A DNA stretch of 17,256 nt from a virus (IMGVR_UViG_2698536348_000007:1-17256), one strand, 5' to 3'; positions 1,717-5,511 are shown, counted from the stretch's first letter. The notes: generated by a model not told the origin, from the letters alone. Numbers and translations are program-made.

Positions 1717-2075
1717 ATGAATATGAGTTTGTGCTTCCCTGGCCGCCGACGGTGAATACCTACTGGCGAAGACGGGGAAGCCAGTACTACATCAGCGATA
1801 AAGGCCAGAAATACCGAAAAGACGTACAGCAAATCATCCGGCAACTCAGATTAGACATTTTCACTAAATCACGACTTCGCATCACAATTATTGCTGAACC
1901 ACCAGATTCCCGCCGTCGCGACCTCGATAACATCCTGAAAGGTTTACTCGACTCTCTTATCCACGCCGGATTTGCGGAAGACGACGAGCAATTCGATGAC
2001 ATTCGCGTAATTCGCGGCGTGAAAGTGCCTGGCGGTAGAGTGGGGATAAAAATCACCGAACTGGAGAACATTTGA
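1713..2075 (+). CDS. rusA: Holliday junction resolvase RusA
   Basis: 120-aa ORF with hallmark RusA motifs (LPWPPTVNTYW..., RRRDLDNILKGLLDSL). Strong Shine-Dalgarno GAAGGAGGGG upstream; start overlaps the ybcO stop (ATGA). Confidence 0.9.
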   Translation: MNEYEFVLPWPPTVNTYWRRRGSQYYISDKGQKYRKDVQQIIRQLRLDIFTKSRLRITIIAEPPDSRRRDLDNILKGLLDSLIHAGFAEDDEQFDDIRVIRGVKVPGGRVGIKITELENI

Positions 2076-2269
2076 TGAATGCTAAAATTCAAACGATACC
2101 TGAATTACTGATCTGCACCAGGGGAAATCAGACAGAAGTCGCCAGAATACTGAACTGCAATCGTGCTACAGTCAGAAAATACATTGATGATAAAGATGCG
2201 AAAAAGCACGCCGTCGTCAATGGCGTCCTTATGGTTCATCGCGGATGGGGTAAAGATACTGATGCGTGA
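2075..2269 (+). CDS. ninH: NinH-like small DNA-binding protein
   Basis: Strong resemblance to lambda NinH ([38 protein letters not shown]). The ORF track starts at TTG 2072; the ATG at 2075 overlaps the rusA stop (TGATG) and is the more likely start. Confidence 0.8.
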
Positions 2270-2696
2270 TATCCGGCAGGTTCTTGAGCGCTGGGGGGCA
2301 TGGGCGGTAAATAACTATGAGGATGTTACATGGTCGCCCATTGCTGCCGGATTTAAGGGACTGATCCCCGAAAAAGTAAAATCACGTCCACAGTGCTGTG
2401 ACGATGATGCGATGGTGATATGCGGGTGCATAGCCCGCCTTTACCGGAACAATCGCGATCTGCATGACTTGCTGGTTGATTACTACGTGTTGGGGGAGAC
2501 GTTCATGGCGCTGGCACGGAAACATGGGTGCTCTGACACCTGTATAGGTAAACGCCTTCACAAAGCGGAGGGGATTGTTGAAGGCATGCTGATGATGCTG
2601 GGAGTGAGGCTTGAGATGGATCGGTATGTTGAGCGTGAATTGCCGGGAGGGAGAAGCTCTGTATTTTATCAGCGAAAAAATAGTTTACGATCGTAA
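2262..2696 (+). CDS. Q: Late-gene antitermination protein Q (phage 21/82 QuuD-like family)
   Basis: From the ATG at 2262 the product ([25 protein letters not shown]...[16 protein letters not shown]...) matches Q/QuuD-type antiterminators from memory. The upstream extension of the track ORF (2163) overlaps ninH and is rejected. Position immediately before the late promoter/lysis region fits. Confidence 0.85.
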
Positions 2697-2720
2697 AAAT
2701 CTGCATATCATGATAAGAGT
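2684..2720 (+). promoter_or_regulatory. Candidate late promoter PR' / Q-utilisation region at the end of Q
   Basis: -35-like TTTACG (2684-2689), about 16-bp spacer, -10-like TATCAT (2706-2711), with a second -10-like GATAAG just downstream. In lambdoid phages PR' sits directly after Q. Hexamer matches are weak, so the exact placement is uncertain. Confidence 0.3.
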
Positions 2721-2741
2721 GGTTACATTGCCACGCAGCCG

Positions 2742-2766
2742 AACCCGCCGATGCGCGGGTTTTTTT
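2742..2766 (+). terminator. Intrinsic terminator 45-70 nt downstream of Q (candidate tR' or Q-gene terminator)
   Basis: GC stem cccgc/gcggg (2744-2748 / 2755-2759) followed by T7 (2760-2766). Confidence 0.5.
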
Positions 2767-2946
2767 GTACCCAGAATCCTGTGAGCTATACGGAAAGTAC
2801 ACAGAAAGGAAGGTACGACCGCAATTAATAACAAAATCTTAAAAATCTCATATGGCACTATTAGTTTTCTAAATATTGTATATTTTAAGTATTGCAGGAT
2901 AACCCTGTAACGAAGTTTGCGTAACAGCATTTTGCTCTACGAGTTT

Positions 2947-2976
2947 GCCAGCCTCCCCTGGTGGCTGGCTTTTTTT
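2947..2976 (+). terminator. Intrinsic terminator (alternative tR' candidate)
   Basis: 7-bp stem gccagcc/ggctggc (2947-2953 / 2963-2969), 9-nt loop, followed by T7 (2970-2976). Confidence 0.55.
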
Positions 2977-3094
2977 GTATCCGTTCAACGGGAATGTTAC
3001 ATACCTCACAATTAAGTCAGTTGAATGTTGTCTGCCCGGATGAGAATTTGTTAGAAAAAACTGCATGGTGAATCCCCCTGAGCGGAGGGGCGAC

Positions 3095-3120
3095 TGGTGA
3101 CGGTATAATCTCTGATTATC
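3095..3120 (+). promoter_or_regulatory. Promoter-like element: consensus -10 TATAAT (3104-3109) with a downstream -10-like repeat GATTAT (3114-3119)
   Basis: Perfect TATAAT hexamer in a non-coding interval; upstream A-tract (3054-3060); -35 is poor. A -10-like repeat just downstream is the architecture of sigma70 promoter-proximal pause sites used by Q antiterminators. Confidence 0.3.
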
Positions 3121-3208
3121 AAAACGAGAATGACGCGGGTTTAGTGGCACCGGGCTGAACTCACCGGGAGGCACCCGGCACCATGCAATGGCACATAGCG
3201 CCACTCTC

Positions 3209-3234
3209 CAGCCCCTCTCCGGAGGGGCTTTCTT
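3209..3234 (+). terminator. Intrinsic terminator-like hairpin closing a candidate ~115-nt small transcript
   Basis: Perfect 7-bp stem gcccctc/gaggggc (3211-3217 / 3222-3228) with tetraloop tccg, followed by tttctt. Confidence 0.45.
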
Positions 3235-3240
3235 ATGGAC

Positions 3241-3268
3241 AAAAAAGCCCGCGCTGGGAGACGCGGGC
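3241..3268 (-). terminator. Minus-strand intrinsic terminator convergent with the previous hairpin
   Basis: On the + strand: A6 (3241-3246) then 7-bp stem gcccgcg/cgcgggc (3247-3253 / 3262-3268). Read on the - strand this is a hairpin followed by U6. Confidence 0.4.
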
Positions 3269-3461
3269 GGCAAGGAATGAACAATGAAACGTGAAGTAAT
3301 ATTTCAGCTGGCGAATAATACCCCATAGTAATCACTCTGCGCAACTGCGCGACCTTTTTCGAATTGCGGGCTGTAGTCTCCCTTCTGCCATTGTCCTGTA
3401 ACTTCCGGACTTCAGCCCGCTCCTTATTTTACTCACAATATTATCCCGGCCGGGAGGATTC

Positions 3462-5372
3462 ATGGCATTTAAACACTATGATGTTGTCAGGGCGGCGTCG
3501 CCGTCAGACCTTGCGAAACGAATAACTCAAAAACTGAAGGAAGGGTGGCAGCCTTATGGTAGTGCGCTGATTTCGACAGCTGGTTATGGTGCGGAGTTCA
3601 TCCAGCCAGTTGTGAGTGAGGGGAGCATCTCATCACCAGAGGAGCCAGGCAACCGTCCGACGACCTCAGCGCCTTCTGTTGCGCCAGAATATTACTATGT
3701 GATCGCGCTTGCTGGTCAGTCCAATGGTATGTCATACGGTGAGGGACTGCCATTACCGGATACATTCGACAGCCCTGATCCACGTATTAAACAGTTAGCG
3801 CGTCGCAGTACGGTGACACCGGGCGGTGCAGCATGCAAATATAACGACATCATTCCGGCGGACCATTGTCTGCATGATGTGCAGGACATGAGCCGTCTTA
3901 ACCATCCGAAAGCGGACCTGTCAAAGGGGCAGTACGGAACCGTGGGGCAGGGGCTGCATATCGCCAAAAAACTGCTGCCGTTTATACCGGCGAATGCGGG
4001 CATTCTGCTGGTTCCGTGCTGTCGTGGTGGTTCAGCGTTCACCACCGGAGCTGATGGCACATACAGTGACGCGAGTGGCGCCTCGGAGAATTCAACCCGC
4101 TGGGGTGTGGACAAGCCGCTGTATAAGGACCTTATCGGTCGAACAAAAGCGGCACTGGAGAAGAACCCGAAAAATGTGCTGTTTGCCGTGGTGTGGATGC
4201 AGGGGGAATTTGATTTTGGCGGTACGCCGGCAAATCATGCCGCACAGTTTGGTGCGCTGGTTGATAAATTCCGTGCAGACCTGGCGGATATGGCAGGCCA
4301 GTGCGTCGGTGGCTCTGCTGGCGGTGTTCCCTGGATATGCGGGGACACGACGTATTTCTGGAAGCAGAAGAACGAATCCACGTACCAGACGGTGTACGGC
4401 AGCTATAAAAATAAAACGGAAAAGAATATCCATTTCGTACCGTTCATGACCGATGAGAACGGGGTGAATGTGCCGACGAACAAACCGGAAGAAGACCCGG
4501 ACATTCCGGGTATCGGTTATTACGGTTCGAAATGGCGTGACAGCTCAGCCACCTGGACGTCACAGGACAGGGCGAGCCATTTCAGTTCATGGGCTCGCCG
4601 TGGGATTATTTCCGACCGTCTGGCAACGGCGATTCTGAGCTGCGCGGGTAAGTCTTCTGCGTTTGTTAATGGTACTGCCGGGGTGGTTGTTCCAGACAGA
4701 CCGGTTACCACCTCAGAGTCTGTAATTTTTTACGATGCCAAAAAAGCTACAGACAATCAGCTGAAACCCTATGGCTGGGACGGTGTGTATGGCAGGCGCA
4801 CACTGGTTGATGACAGCGGCAATAAAGCTCTGCGAATTGAGAAAAATAACAGCGCGAAATCCTGGTCAATGTACTGTGATATTGCTGCAGACAAGGCAAA
4901 ACTTTTACTGGAAAAAGGCGGGGAAATTGCTGTCCGGTTTAAAATCCCCGAAAACGTCAATCTTGAGACAACCAGAAACAAGTATGCCTTTGGTTTGTAC
5001 TGGCGAATAGCGGAATGGCCGGGTGAGGGTGGTGAAGGCCATCTGAGTTCTTTCTTTGTCCAGACAGATAAAGCCAGTATTAATGTTGCATACCATCATA
5101 CAGTTAATCAACAAAAAGAACTTGGCACGTTTGGCGCATTCGACCATGACTGGCATACGCTTGCATTTAAATTTAAGGGCAGTAACAGCATTAATGTTAC
5201 TCCGGTGCTTGATGGTGTGGATGGACAGGCGTTTGACCTGGTGAAATGGGCCAATACTGCTAATGGACTCAACAGGTTTGTCATTACGGATATTACAGGT
5301 AGTGCAGAAACCTACCCTGTACTTATTGATACGGTGGAAGTTAAAGCAAACAAAGCTGGAGCAGCCGCATAA
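3462..5372 (+). CDS. nanS-p: NanS-p-type prophage sialate (9-O-acetyl-N-acetylneuraminate) esterase, YjhS-like; N-terminal DUF1737-like domain plus SASA/SGNH esterase domain
   Basis: 636-aa ORF with GGAGG Shine-Dalgarno 6 nt upstream. N-terminus MAFKHYDVVRAASPSDLAKRITQKLKEGWQPYG and the ALAGQSNGMSYGEG...VVWMQGEFD esterase core match the nanS-p/yjhS family found downstream of stx in Stx phages, from memory. Sits in the Q-to-holin moron locus. Confidence 0.85.
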   Translation: MAFKHYDVVRAASPSDLAKRITQKLKEGWQPYGSALISTAGYGAEFIQPVVSEGSISSPEEPGNRPTTSAPSVAPEYYYVIALAGQSNGMSYGEGLPLPDTFDSPDPRIKQLARRSTVTPGGAACKYNDIIPADHCLHDVQDMSRLNHPKADLSKGQYGTVGQGLHIAKKLLPFIPANAGILLVPCCRGGSAFTTGADGTYSDASGASENSTRWGVDKPLYKDLIGRTKAALEKNPKNVLFAVVWMQGEFDFGGTPANHAAQFGALVDKFRADLADMAGQCVGGSAGGVPWICGDTTYFWKQKNESTYQTVYGSYKNKTEKNIHFVPFMTDENGVNVPTNKPEEDPDIPGIGYYGSKWRDSSATWTSQDRASHFSSWARRGIISDRLATAILSCAGKSSAFVNGTAGVVVPDRPVTTSESVIFYDAKKATDNQLKPYGWDGVYGRRTLVDDSGNKALRIEKNNSAKSWSMYCDIAADKAKLLLEKGGEIAVRFKIPENVNLETTRNKYAFGLYWRIAEWPGEGGEGHLSSFFVQTDKASINVAYHHTVNQQKELGTFGAFDHDWHTLAFKFKGSNSINVTPVLDGVDGQAFDLVKWANTANGLNRFVITDITGSAETYPVLIDTVEVKANKAGAAA

Positions 5373-5377
5373 TTGCT

Positions 5378-5414
5378 AAAAAAAGCCGCCAGCGGCAGGA
5401 ATGGAAGCTGGCGG
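5378..5414 (-). terminator. Minus-strand intrinsic terminator directly after the nanS-p stop
   Basis: + strand: A7 (5378-5384) then 8-bp stem ccgccagc/gctggcgg (5386-5393 / 5407-5414) with a 13-nt loop. No T-run follows on the + strand, so it works as a terminator only for leftward transcription (it may still stabilise the 3' end of nanS-p mRNA). Confidence 0.4.
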
Positions 5415-5511
5415 AGGTAATCCCAATGGAGAATGTAAAGAAAAGATGCTTTCGTACATTGGTTTTTTAAATGAAAACAATTCTCATTGTCAACCATAAC
5501 GGTAAGAAATT

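What the first reader, a model, noticed from the sequence alone, without database searches (positions are those of the whole stretch)
3241..3400. Convergent minus-strand terminator facing the plus-strand hairpin: possible antisense small transcript
The hairpin at 3247-3268 is preceded by A6 on the + strand, so it is a U-tailed terminator only for leftward transcription. It sits 7 bp from the plus-strand terminator-like hairpin (3211-3234), giving a back-to-back convergent terminator pair in a region with no protein-coding gene on either strand. This implies a leftward transcript starting somewhere in 3270-3450 (weak TTGCGC...TATTAT-like elements exist on the minus strand) or an insulator against antisense transcription into Q.
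Basis: seen in the sequence. Interest (0 to 1): 0.4.

Follow-up and report, generated by a model that had tools for sequence, protein, structure and literature searches.

The report
Terminator of a known prophage sRNA
The leftward hairpin is the real transcription terminator of a small Hfq-bound regulatory RNA that lambdoid (Shiga-toxin-type) prophages carry tail-to-tail with the sRNA STnc100; this RNA was already detected in E. coli O157:H7 as EcOnc08/21/42, but its function is still unknown.

Summary
3268->3247 is an 8-bp GC-rich hairpin followed by U6 (3246->3241) on the minus strand only. The facing plus-strand hairpin is the terminator of STnc100 (Rfam RF02076, 3035-3240).

In 74 of 91 loci held (the window plus fetched loci, mostly related prophages) the same slot holds a hairpin plus a run of at least 6 T. 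At least five different stem sequences occur. Each lies downstream of an invariant TTGCGC, 18 nt and a TAnnnT hexamer.

In other alleles the slot holds the anti-sRNAs AsxR and AgvB (Rfam hits) and EcOnc03. Their RACE-mapped starts lie 6 nt after that hexamer. The window allele is not AsxR or AgvB. It is 93-94% identical to EcOnc08 (prophage Sp4) and to the EcOnc42 locus (Sp15, Stx1 phage) of strain Sakai.

Published work on those orthologues shows Hfq crosslinking, a ~271-nt Northern band, and RNase E-CLASH reads. One read ends inside the U-tract; others cross the predicted short-form start.

Most likely the window holds nested leftward transcripts sharing this terminator: a long form of at least ~190 nt, and probably a 69-nt form (3309->3241). 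They would act by base pairing through a U-rich linker. Targets are unknown. This is a "convergent sRNA pair" as described by Tree et al. 2014, so the kind is already known. It is unannotated in 537 E. coli genomes.

The parts
3247..3268 (-). Terminator hairpin of the leftward sRNA (GCCCGCGU-CUCCCA-GCGCGGGC)
   Evidence: Relatives carry structurally equivalent hairpins with different sequences, including a G-C to A-U compensatory change in L082.
3241..3246 (-). U6 tail: termination site and likely Hfq-binding 3' end
   Evidence: The tail is 6-10 U in all alleles. A CLASH read of the Sp4 orthologue ends ...GCGCGGGCUU, inside this tract.
3241..3309 (-). Predicted 69-nt short form: weak 5' hairpin with loop AUUACUUCAC, U-rich linker, terminator
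   Evidence: The +1 at A3309 is inferred from positional homology with the RACE-mapped +1 of AsxR and AgvB. The Hfq-CRAC peak EcOnc08 of Sp4 maps to 3242-3314. Identity to Sp4 is 65/69 and to Sp15 64/69. The short form itself has not been shown directly.
3315..3320 (-). -10 hexamer TATTAT of the short-form promoter
   Evidence: It is TATTAT in alleles A, B and D and TAAAAT in AsxR, AgvB and EcOnc03, always 18 nt from TTGCGC.
3339..3344 (-). -35 element TTGCGC
   Evidence: one match in the window, 0 expected in shuffles. CAGTTGCGCA is present in every representative allele, with one substitution just upstream in Sp4 and Sp15, even where the overlapping plus-strand stem changes.
3310..3433 (-). 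Upstream part of the long form (orthologue of EcOnc21/EcOnc42)
   Evidence: CRAC peaks map to 3320-3405. The Northern probe maps to 3314-3348 with 30/35 identical. CLASH fragments span the -10 and +1, and their 5'-most edges map to about 3431.
3440..3468 (-). Candidate long-form promoter (ATGCCA, 17 nt, GATAAT). Its -35 overlaps the nanS-p start codon.
   Evidence: Consensus scan. GATAAT or GATAGT is kept in most alleles. The predicted start near 3433 fits the CLASH fragment edges. This is inferred, and it does not account for the reported ~271 nt.
3035..3240 (+). STnc100 sRNA, the convergent partner. Its terminator stem is 3210-3229.
   Evidence: Rfam RF02076 at 165 bits, E = 8e-38. The same family sits upstream of the slot in the related loci scanned with Rfam.
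3462..5372 (+). nanS-p-type sialate O-acetylesterase gene, the conserved ORF that bounds the sRNA pair
   Evidence: ORF list. RefSeq annotates it as a "SASA family carbohydrate esterase".

Best explanation
The hairpin plus U6 at 3268->3241 is the intrinsic terminator of a leftward, non-coding, Hfq-associated small RNA gene. The gene lies tail-to-tail with STnc100 in the "moron" region between the late promoter PR' and the nanS-p esterase gene of a lambdoid prophage. It is the window's copy of EcOnc08/21 (prophage Sp4) and EcOnc42 (Stx1 prophage Sp15) of E. coli O157:H7 Sakai. It occupies the same slot as the anti-sRNAs AsxR, AgvB and EcOnc03.

Transcription most likely starts at two nested points. 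One is an upstream start at about 3433 or beyond, giving a long form of at least ~190 nt (reported as ~271 nt on Northern blots). The other is the AsxR-type promoter (TTGCGC, 18 nt, TATTAT), giving a 69-nt form from 3309 to 3241. Both end at this terminator.

The RNA probably acts in trans by base pairing through the U-rich single-stranded stretch between its 5' hairpin and the terminator (about 3288-3269). The terminator hairpin and U-tail would serve as the Hfq-binding module.

Shown: the terminator, its conservation, the homology, and the published expression of the orthologues. Inferred: expression in this strain, the short form, and the mode of action. As a side effect the terminator keeps leftward transcription out of STnc100 and the Q/PR' region.
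For: Terminator and its conservation:
- 74 of 91 loci carry TTGCGCA-N17-TAnnnT, a 30-95 nt body and a run of at least 6 T. At least five unrelated stem sequences all keep a hairpin directly followed by U6-U10. L082 has a compensatory G-C to A-U change in the stem.

The slot:
- Rfam finds AgvB (RF02702) at this position and strand in L048, L054 and L066, and AsxR (RF02703) in L020, each immediately after STnc100.
- Tree et al. 2014 describe these "convergent sRNA pairs" 3' of PR' in Sp3, 4, 5, 9, 10, 11, 15 and 17.

Promoter:
- The -35 and the 18-nt spacing are invariant while the -10 switches between TATTAT and TAAAAT. The published 5' ends of AsxR and AgvB sit 6 nt after the hexamer.
- The pattern occurs once in the window, with 0 expected by chance.

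Orthology:
- Identity to Sp4 and Sp15 is 65/69 and 64/69 in the short module, and 142/152 and 140/152 upstream.
- The Northern probe for EcOnc08/21/42 matches 3314-3348.

Expression of the orthologues:
- Hfq-CRAC peaks map to 3242-3314 and 3320-3405.
- RNase E-CLASH reads include one ending in the U-tract, and hybrids that use UUGUUGUUUAUUCCUUGCC.

The window keeps every one of these elements intact, with a perfect stem, whereas Sp15 has a stem mismatch.
Against: - There are no expression data for this strain.
- The short form is inferred only. The published Northern probe lies upstream of its predicted +1, and several CLASH fragments cross that +1, so a long RNA could account for all published signals.
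- The reported ~271 nt implies a 5' end near 3511, where I find no convincing sigma-70 promoter. The scan's best candidate gives only about 193 nt.
- The -35 has only 3 of 6 consensus matches, and it overlaps a plus-strand terminator-like hairpin that could itself explain part of its conservation.
- The CLASH partners (csgD, yegP, sppA) are single reads. The csgD and yegP fragments map inside coding regions; the sppA fragment could not be placed. None is a validated target.
- The window differs from the Sakai alleles at three positions in the putative seed.
- Rfam's AsxR and AgvB models do not match the window even at E <= 10.
Confidence: 0.78

Rival explanations
1. Anti-sRNA (sponge) reading. 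Like AgvB (anti-GcvB) and AsxR (anti-FnrS) in the same slot, the window RNA sequesters or destabilises a core-genome sRNA rather than regulating mRNAs directly. This is a sub-hypothesis of the best explanation rather than a strict alternative.
For: The slot, orientation, -35, spacing and hairpin-plus-U-tail architecture match the two proven anti-sRNAs. Tree et al. proposed the group as a class. The polymorphic positions fall in the single-stranded region, as with the variable 5' domains of AgvB and AsxR.
Against: The body shows no sequence similarity to AgvB or AsxR. No complementary core sRNA was identified here. The few CLASH hybrids retrieved for the orthologue are with mRNA fragments, not sRNAs. 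The sequence is U-rich and seed-like rather than a target mimic.
Confidence: 0.25
2. Cis-antisense reading. The functional unit is the long form. It is transcribed from within or next to the nanS-p start region, is fully complementary to the nanS-p leader and the late transcript, and controls esterase expression. Alternatively it is titrated by Q-antiterminated late transcription on induction. Under this reading the terminator simply ends that antisense RNA.
For: A long form exists in the orthologues: the Northern band is ~271 nt, and the probe and CLASH fragments lie upstream of the short-form +1. If the size is correct, the 5' end lies near 3511 and would cover the nanS-p ribosome-binding site and ATG at 3462. 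A candidate promoter has its -35 on the nanS-p start codon.
Against: The CLASH and CRAC signal stops at about 3405-3431, short of the ribosome-binding site at 3450-3456. In lysogens plus-strand transcription should be stopped by tR' and the STnc100 terminator, so there may be no sense partner. The long hairpin at 3367-3421 is better preserved on the plus strand than on the minus strand in several alleles, so this part of the sequence is not obviously selected for the antisense RNA.
Confidence: 0.2
3. Insulator only. The hairpin is kept to stop stray leftward transcription from running antisense into STnc100, a toxin moron and Q. Any RNA ending there is a by-product without function.
For: The terminators sit back to back at a mosaic junction. 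The hairpin is replaced by unrelated sequences that keep only terminator properties.
Against: A promoter at fixed geometry is conserved just upstream. The RNAs at this slot are among the most abundant Hfq ligands in EHEC, and two have demonstrated functions. The 5' 23 nt of allele A are nearly invariant across its sequence variants.
Confidence: 0.1
4. The terminator belongs to a small protein-coding gene on the minus strand, for example the 43-aa ORF at 3463->3332.
For: An ATG-started 43-codon ORF ends 64 nt upstream of the hairpin.
Against: The ORF has no Pfam match. It is not annotated by PGAP. Its frame is broken by a 1-nt insertion in L062-type loci and by 8-nt and larger indels in B and D alleles. 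Its ATG lies upstream of every RNA fragment recovered.
Confidence: 0.02

Closest known systems
EcOnc08/EcOnc21 (prophage Sp4) and EcOnc42 (Stx1 prophage Sp15) of E. coli O157:H7 Sakai (Tree et al. 2014, PMC4104026; Sy et al. 2020, PMC7547250)
   Same: Same slot, strand, promoter elements and terminator. Identity is 64-65/69 in the 3' module and 140-142/152 upstream. These RNAs are Hfq-crosslinked, Northern-positive and carry a Rho-independent terminator.
   Different: There are three substitutions in the U-rich linker: window CGUUUCAUUGUUCAUUCC against Sakai CGUUUUGUUGUUUAUUCC. The loop has one substitution. The window stem is perfect, whereas Sp15 has a mismatch. Here the moron site upstream is empty, with no stx or tRNA genes. 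The function of the published RNAs is listed as unknown.
AsxR (RF02703), AgvB (RF02702) and EcOnc03: prophage-encoded anti-sRNAs
   Same: They occupy the same slot, convergent with STnc100. They share the same -35 TTGCGC, the 18-nt spacer and the offset from the -10 to +1. They also share the short hairpin plus U-tail.
   Different: They have a different -10 (TAAAAT), body and terminator sequence. Their Rfam models do not match the window at E <= 10. They are 51-60 nt against a predicted 69 nt. A long upstream-initiated form is documented for the EcOnc08/42 type. Sponge targets are known for them (GcvB, FnrS) and none is known here.
STnc100 / EcOnc05 / EcOnc27 / PasD family (RF02076)
   Different: It lies on the opposite strand and is an unrelated RNA of about 206 nt. 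It is not part of the leftward transcript.
Phage lambda OOP RNA (recalled from general knowledge, not tested here)
   Same: A short leftward, terminator-ended RNA in a lambdoid phage that runs against a major rightward transcript.
   Different: OOP lies in the immunity/replication region and overlaps cII. There is no sequence or positional relationship.

Membership tests
Convergent sRNA pair at the PR' moron site of lambdoid prophages (Tree et al. 2014) | Located downstream of Q, PR' and tR', and upstream of the conserved hypothetical (nanS-p-type) ORF | tested here: met
   Q lies at 2163-2696. The PR'-tR'/StxS region at 2690-2975 is 95% identical to Sp15. nanS-p lies at 3462-5372.
Convergent sRNA pair at the PR' moron site of lambdoid prophages (Tree et al. 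2014) | A plus-strand sRNA (EcOnc05/27 = STnc100 type) facing a minus-strand sRNA, with 3' ends adjacent | tested here: met
   STnc100 lies at 3035-3240. The minus-strand terminator lies at 3268->3241.
Convergent sRNA pair at the PR' moron site of lambdoid prophages (Tree et al. 2014) | Both RNAs are expressed and bound by Hfq | not testable with these tools
   This is shown only for the Sakai orthologues: CRAC peaks map to 3242-3314 and 3320-3405.
EcOnc08/21/42 | Sequence identity to the published loci, including the Northern probe site | tested here: met
   Identity is 93-94% in the 69-nt module and 92-93% upstream. The probe matches 30/35 at 3314-3348.
EcOnc08/21/42 | Transcript of about 271 nt | tested here: inconclusive
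   That size would place the 5' end near 3511, where no good promoter was found. The CLASH fragment edges and the GATAAT promoter suggest about 193 nt.
AsxR/AgvB/EcOnc03 anti-sRNA family (RF02703, RF02702) | Conserved ~42-nt 3' region (GUAUCUCAUGC..UUGCCCGAACCCAYUCGGGC) | tested here: not met
   Neither model matches the window at E <= 10. The alignment shows a different body and stem.
AsxR/AgvB/EcOnc03 anti-sRNA family (RF02703, RF02702) | Same genomic slot and promoter geometry | tested here: met
AsxR/AgvB/EcOnc03 anti-sRNA family (RF02703, RF02702) | Antagonises a core-genome sRNA by pairing with its seed | not tested
   No systematic search against core sRNAs was possible. Only Spot 42 was fetched, and it shares a same-sense 11-mer with the window RNA, not a complementary one.
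Intrinsic (Rho-independent) terminator | GC-rich stem, 3-8 nt loop, and at least 5 U immediately 3' of the stem | tested here: met
   The stem has 8 bp (7 G-C), the loop is 6 nt and the tail is U6; dG is -15.8 kcal/mol.
STnc100 (RF02076), for the facing plus-strand hairpin | Score above the Rfam gathering threshold over the full model | tested here: met
   165.1 bits against 47, covering model positions 1-206.

The most novel reading that the evidence does not exclude
The slot behind STnc100 may be a modular sRNA cassette. A fixed -35 would drive interchangeable modules of -10, seed and terminator. The allele in this window would then produce a separate 69-nt Hfq-dependent RNA from the AsxR-type promoter, nested inside the longer EcOnc42-type transcript. 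Its specificity would differ from GcvB and FnrS antagonism and would be retuned by the three polymorphic seed positions seen among allele-A variants. That would make it a third, uncharacterised specificity class of prophage regulatory sRNA. It is present in about 10% of complete E. coli genomes, including the O104:H4 outbreak lineage.
Probability: 0.35. Interest if true: 0.45.

Novelty: already known. Interest (0 to 1): 0.28.

Why it matters
Prophage sRNAs at this slot are among the most abundant Hfq ligands in EHEC. Two of them rewire core regulons: AgvB acts on GcvB, and AsxR acts on FnrS and heme use.

The allele here has no Rfam family and no annotation in any of the 537 complete E. coli genomes that carry it. 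Those include O104:H4-type strains and Stx2a and Stx1 phages. Its targets are unknown.

Recognising it explains an otherwise empty 220-bp intergenic region. It also shows that a toxin-less prophage keeps the whole sRNA set around an empty toxin site: StxS, STnc100 and the leftward sRNA. It gives exact coordinates for deletion and probe design. It does not reveal a new kind of element.

Tried and rejected
- Protein-coding reading of the minus-strand ORFs (43, 67 and 134 aa). There is no significant Pfam match and the frames are not conserved. The 14-codon plus-strand ORF at 3285 loses its ATG in relatives. Rejected.
- Sub-threshold Rfam hits on the minus strand: OmrA-B at 18.5 bits, anti-hemB, and a betaproteobacterial toxic sRNA. 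All are terminator-driven and far below gathering scores. Rejected.
- A formal pair count on one alignment of all alleles. MAFFT put the B, D and AsxR-type stems out of register with the A-type stem, so I folded each allele separately instead.
- A scan of genome contigs with the STnc100 core returned only 4 loci, none with a nanS-adjacent pair of this type. It adds little to cross-species depth.
- A duplex scan of the sRNA against the window's plus strand gave long, implausible duplexes with no usable background. Discarded.
- CLASH partners of the orthologue (csgD, yegP, sppA). These are single reads. The csgD and yegP fragments map inside coding regions, and the sppA fragment could not be placed. 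They are not treated as targets.
- The Spot 42 seed regions could not be checked in the literature because the papers are not held. The 11-nt identity stays an unexplained observation.
- No supplement is held for Sy et al. 2020, so the Term-seq and dRNA-seq positions could not be read.

Full report
**Context**

The window is the late-regulatory region of a lambdoid prophage. Positions 2690-3470 are 100% identical to a toxin-less prophage of E. coli O104:H4 and related strains. PGAP annotates nothing there between the Q antiterminator and a "SASA family carbohydrate esterase", the nanS-p type gene.

In window coordinates the layout is:
- Q at 2163-2696.
- A PR'-tR' segment at 2690-2975 that is 95% identical to the StxS-encoding region of the Sakai Stx1 prophage.
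- STnc100 at 3035-3240 (Rfam RF02076, 165 bits against a gathering score of 47).
- The finding itself.
- nanS-p at 3462-5372.

On the minus strand, 3268->3247 reads GCCCGCGU-CUCCCA-GCGCGGGC, followed by UUUUUU at 3246->3241.
- The hairpin has 8 pairs, 7 of them G-C. The eighth is a U-G pair that would be a C.A mismatch on the plus strand.
- It is the top terminator-like site in 2000-5000. That region has 10 such sites against 3.2 +/- 2.0 in shuffles.
- The hairpin dG is -15.8 kcal/mol.
- The 71-nt stretch ending at the tail folds with z = -3.47.
- Nothing T-rich follows the hairpin on the plus strand.

The facing plus-strand hairpin (stem 3210-3229) is the terminator of STnc100, not an orphan. 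The modelled 3' end of STnc100 (3240) and the U-tract (3241) abut.

**Comparative evidence**

I fetched 80 loci around relatives of the esterase N-terminus and aligned the interval from the STnc100 3' end to the esterase ATG.

The minus-strand hairpin is conserved as a structure, not as a sequence. At least five stem types occur:
- GCCCGCGU/GCGCGGGC
- GCCCGCAU/AUGCGGGC, which carries a compensatory G-C to A-U change
- CCGCUC/GAGCGG
- CCGCUC/GGGCGG
- GCCCGA/UCGGGC

Each is followed directly by U6-U10 on the minus strand. A pattern search found TTGCGCA-N17-TAnnnT, a 30-95 nt body and a run of at least 6 T in 74 of the 91 loci held. That set includes the window, the Sakai regions and a few unrelated fetched loci.

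**What the slot contains elsewhere**

Rfam scans of 16 representative loci placed AgvB (RF02702; L048, L054, L066) and AsxR (RF02703; L020) exactly at this position and strand, immediately after STnc100.

Tree et al. 2014 (PMC4104026) described this arrangement as "convergent sRNA" genes 3' of PR' at the moron insertion site. They found it in Sakai prophages Sp3, Sp4, Sp5, Sp9, Sp10, Sp11, Sp15 and Sp17. AsxR, AgvB and EcOnc03 were the most abundant unannotated Hfq ligands, and they act as anti-sRNAs.

**Promoter**

The minus-strand alignment of representative alleles shows three things:
- TTGCGC is invariant. The flanking CAGTTGCGCA is kept in all but the Sp4 and Sp15 alleles, which differ by one base just upstream.
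- An 18-nt spacer follows.
- Next comes a -10-like hexamer: TATTAT in the window-type and B/D alleles, TAAAAT in AsxR, AgvB and EcOnc03.

The published sequences of AsxR and AgvB, whose primary 5' ends were mapped by RLM-RACE with and without TAP, begin 6 nt after that hexamer.

In the window the elements are -35 at 3344->3339 and -10 at 3320->3315. The pattern matches once in the window, with 0 expected in shuffles. By the same offset, +1 is A3309, which predicts a 69-nt RNA from 3309 to 3241.

The TTGCGCA motif stays constant in the B/D alleles, where the overlapping plus-strand stem is replaced by a different one. That favours a sequence-specific role such as a -35. The element has only 3 of 6 consensus matches.

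**Identity of the window allele**

It is not AsxR or AgvB: neither Rfam model matches at E <= 10. It is the allele of Sakai Sp4 and Sp15. Identity is 65/69 and 64/69 in the 69-nt module, and 142/152 and 140/152 in the upstream interval.

Tree et al. list three relevant Hfq-CRAC peaks there:
- EcOnc08 and EcOnc21 in Sp4, on the minus strand.
- EcOnc42 in Sp15, antisense to PR', with a Rho-independent terminator flagged.

One shared Northern probe detected about 271 nt. That probe, AATAATATCCGACAGTAATCACTCTGCGCAATAGC, maps to window 3314-3348 with 30 of 35 identical.

The paper's coordinates and NC_002695.2 are offset, so I calibrated with known sequences. The offset is 0 at Sp4 and about +135 at Sp5 and Sp15. 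With that correction, EcOnc08 maps to window 3242-3314, almost exactly the predicted short RNA. EcOnc21 and EcOnc42 map to about 3320-3405.

Later papers still list EcOnc42 as an sRNA 3' of stx1 with unknown function.

**In vivo fragments from RNase E-CLASH** (Waters et al., PMC5286369, supplementary files)

- Reads containing ATATTATTCGCCAGCTGAAA and ATTATTCGCCAGCTGAAATATTACTTC run through the -10 and the predicted +1. A transcript that starts further upstream therefore exists.
- The 5'-most fragment edges in Sp4 and Sp15 both map to about 3431. This fits the scan's candidate promoter, ATGCCA-17-GATAAT at 3468->3440. That promoter predicts a start near 3433 and an RNA of about 193 nt. One of those edges is soft, because the read has unaligned bases 5' of it.
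- A read TTTGTTGTTTATTCCTTGCCGCCCGCGTCCCCTGCGCGGGCTT, joined to an mRNA fragment, shows an RNA 3' end inside the U-tract, equivalent to about 3245.
- Hybrids with mRNA fragments use the U-rich linker UUGUUGUUUAUUCCUUGCC. They are single reads. The csgD and yegP fragments map inside coding regions, and the sppA fragment could not be placed. I do not treat any of them as a target.
- An intramolecular chimera joins the two arms of the long hairpin that corresponds to 3367-3421.

**Predicted anatomy of the 69-nt form**

- A weak AU-rich 5' hairpin with loop AUUACUUCAC.
- A single-stranded U-rich linker.
- The terminator and the U6 tail.

Among allele-A variants the first 23 nt are nearly invariant. 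The only exception is L082, which has a small insertion there. Three positions in and after the 3' arm of the 5' hairpin vary: C/U, A/G and C/U. The first two changes keep pairing through G-U wobbles.

**Most likely mechanism**

I favour a leftward, Hfq-associated base-pairing RNA made as nested transcripts that share this terminator.

- Shown: the terminator, its conservation, the homology, and the published expression of the orthologues.
- Inferred: expression in this strain, the existence of the short form, and action in trans through the linker.
- Open: whether it is a sponge like its slot-mates, a direct mRNA regulator, or (as the long form) a cis-antisense RNA to the nanS-p leader and the late transcript.

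The ~271-nt Northern size is not explained by any promoter I can see.

**Distribution and novelty**

The 72-nt module matches 537 of 5,426 complete E. coli genomes, with no annotated feature under the match in any record listed. It also matches 55 phage records, including Stx2a- and Stx1-converting phages.

The element belongs to an already described class, and this allele has itself been detected experimentally. The finding is therefore real but already known. What remains of interest is its unknown function, the lack of annotation, and the possible nested short form.

Noticed in passing
window 2690-2975 (+): This segment is 95% identical over 286 nt to the PR'-tR' region of the Sakai Stx1 prophage that encodes the sRNA StxS (EcOnc15). 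The promoter-like site at 2684-2711 and the terminator at 2945-2964 plus T7 predict the same 258-nt transcript length reported for StxS. A prophage without stx genes therefore keeps StxS, and the moron site between tR' and STnc100 is only about 60 nt long.
   Followed up: partly
window 5379-5491 (-): A second leftward sRNA-like unit lies just after the nanS-p stop codon. It has TTGACA at 5491->5486 and a terminator at 5398->5386 followed by U7. Its position matches the Hfq peak EcOnc52 of Sp4, and possibly PasA, which is reported on the far side of the esterase gene. Its sequence identity to either was not checked.
   Followed up: partly
window 3367-3421 (both strands): A long hairpin (13-nt arms, GCGGGCUGUAGUC...GACUUCAGCCCGC) is followed on the plus strand by UCCUUAUUUU. 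In several alleles it is much more stable on the plus strand, through G-U pairs. For example L022 gives -19.8 against -2.6 kcal/mol and L063 gives -23.2 against -12.3. This suggests selection on the nanS-p leader or late transcript rather than on the leftward RNA.
   Followed up: partly
window 3338-3360 (+): A plus-strand terminator-like hairpin, TGCGC-AACT-GCGCG followed by ACCTTTTT, overlaps the minus-strand -35. In AsxR and AgvB alleles it is a perfect 8-bp stem followed by T5. Its role is unknown; it could be a backup terminator for read-through from PR' or STnc100.
   Followed up: no
window 3288-3298 (-) and E. coli K-12 spf (L091 300-410): The predicted sRNA shares an 11-nt same-sense identity, UUACUUCACGU, with Spot 42. 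Nearby, GCUGAAAUAUU resembles Spot 42's GCUGAAUAUUU. From memory, not verified here, Spot 42 regulates sialic-acid genes (nanC, nanT), and this sRNA sits next to a sialate esterase gene. The match could be chance.
   Followed up: partly
L063 1292-2273; L028 1803-2289: Some related prophages carry tandem arrays of STnc100 upstream of the same slot: four copies in L063 and two in L028.
   Followed up: no
L090 (NZ_JPLE01000080.1, 888 bp, labelled Xanthomonas pisi): A tiny contig in a Xanthomonas assembly carries the E. coli STnc100 core and an AsxR-type locus. This is most likely contamination of that assembly.
   Followed up: no
L067, L088 and other loci that lack the pattern: In a minority of relatives the sequence after STnc100 is different and lacks the adjacent leftward terminator. 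The convergent pair is therefore common but not universal.
   Followed up: no
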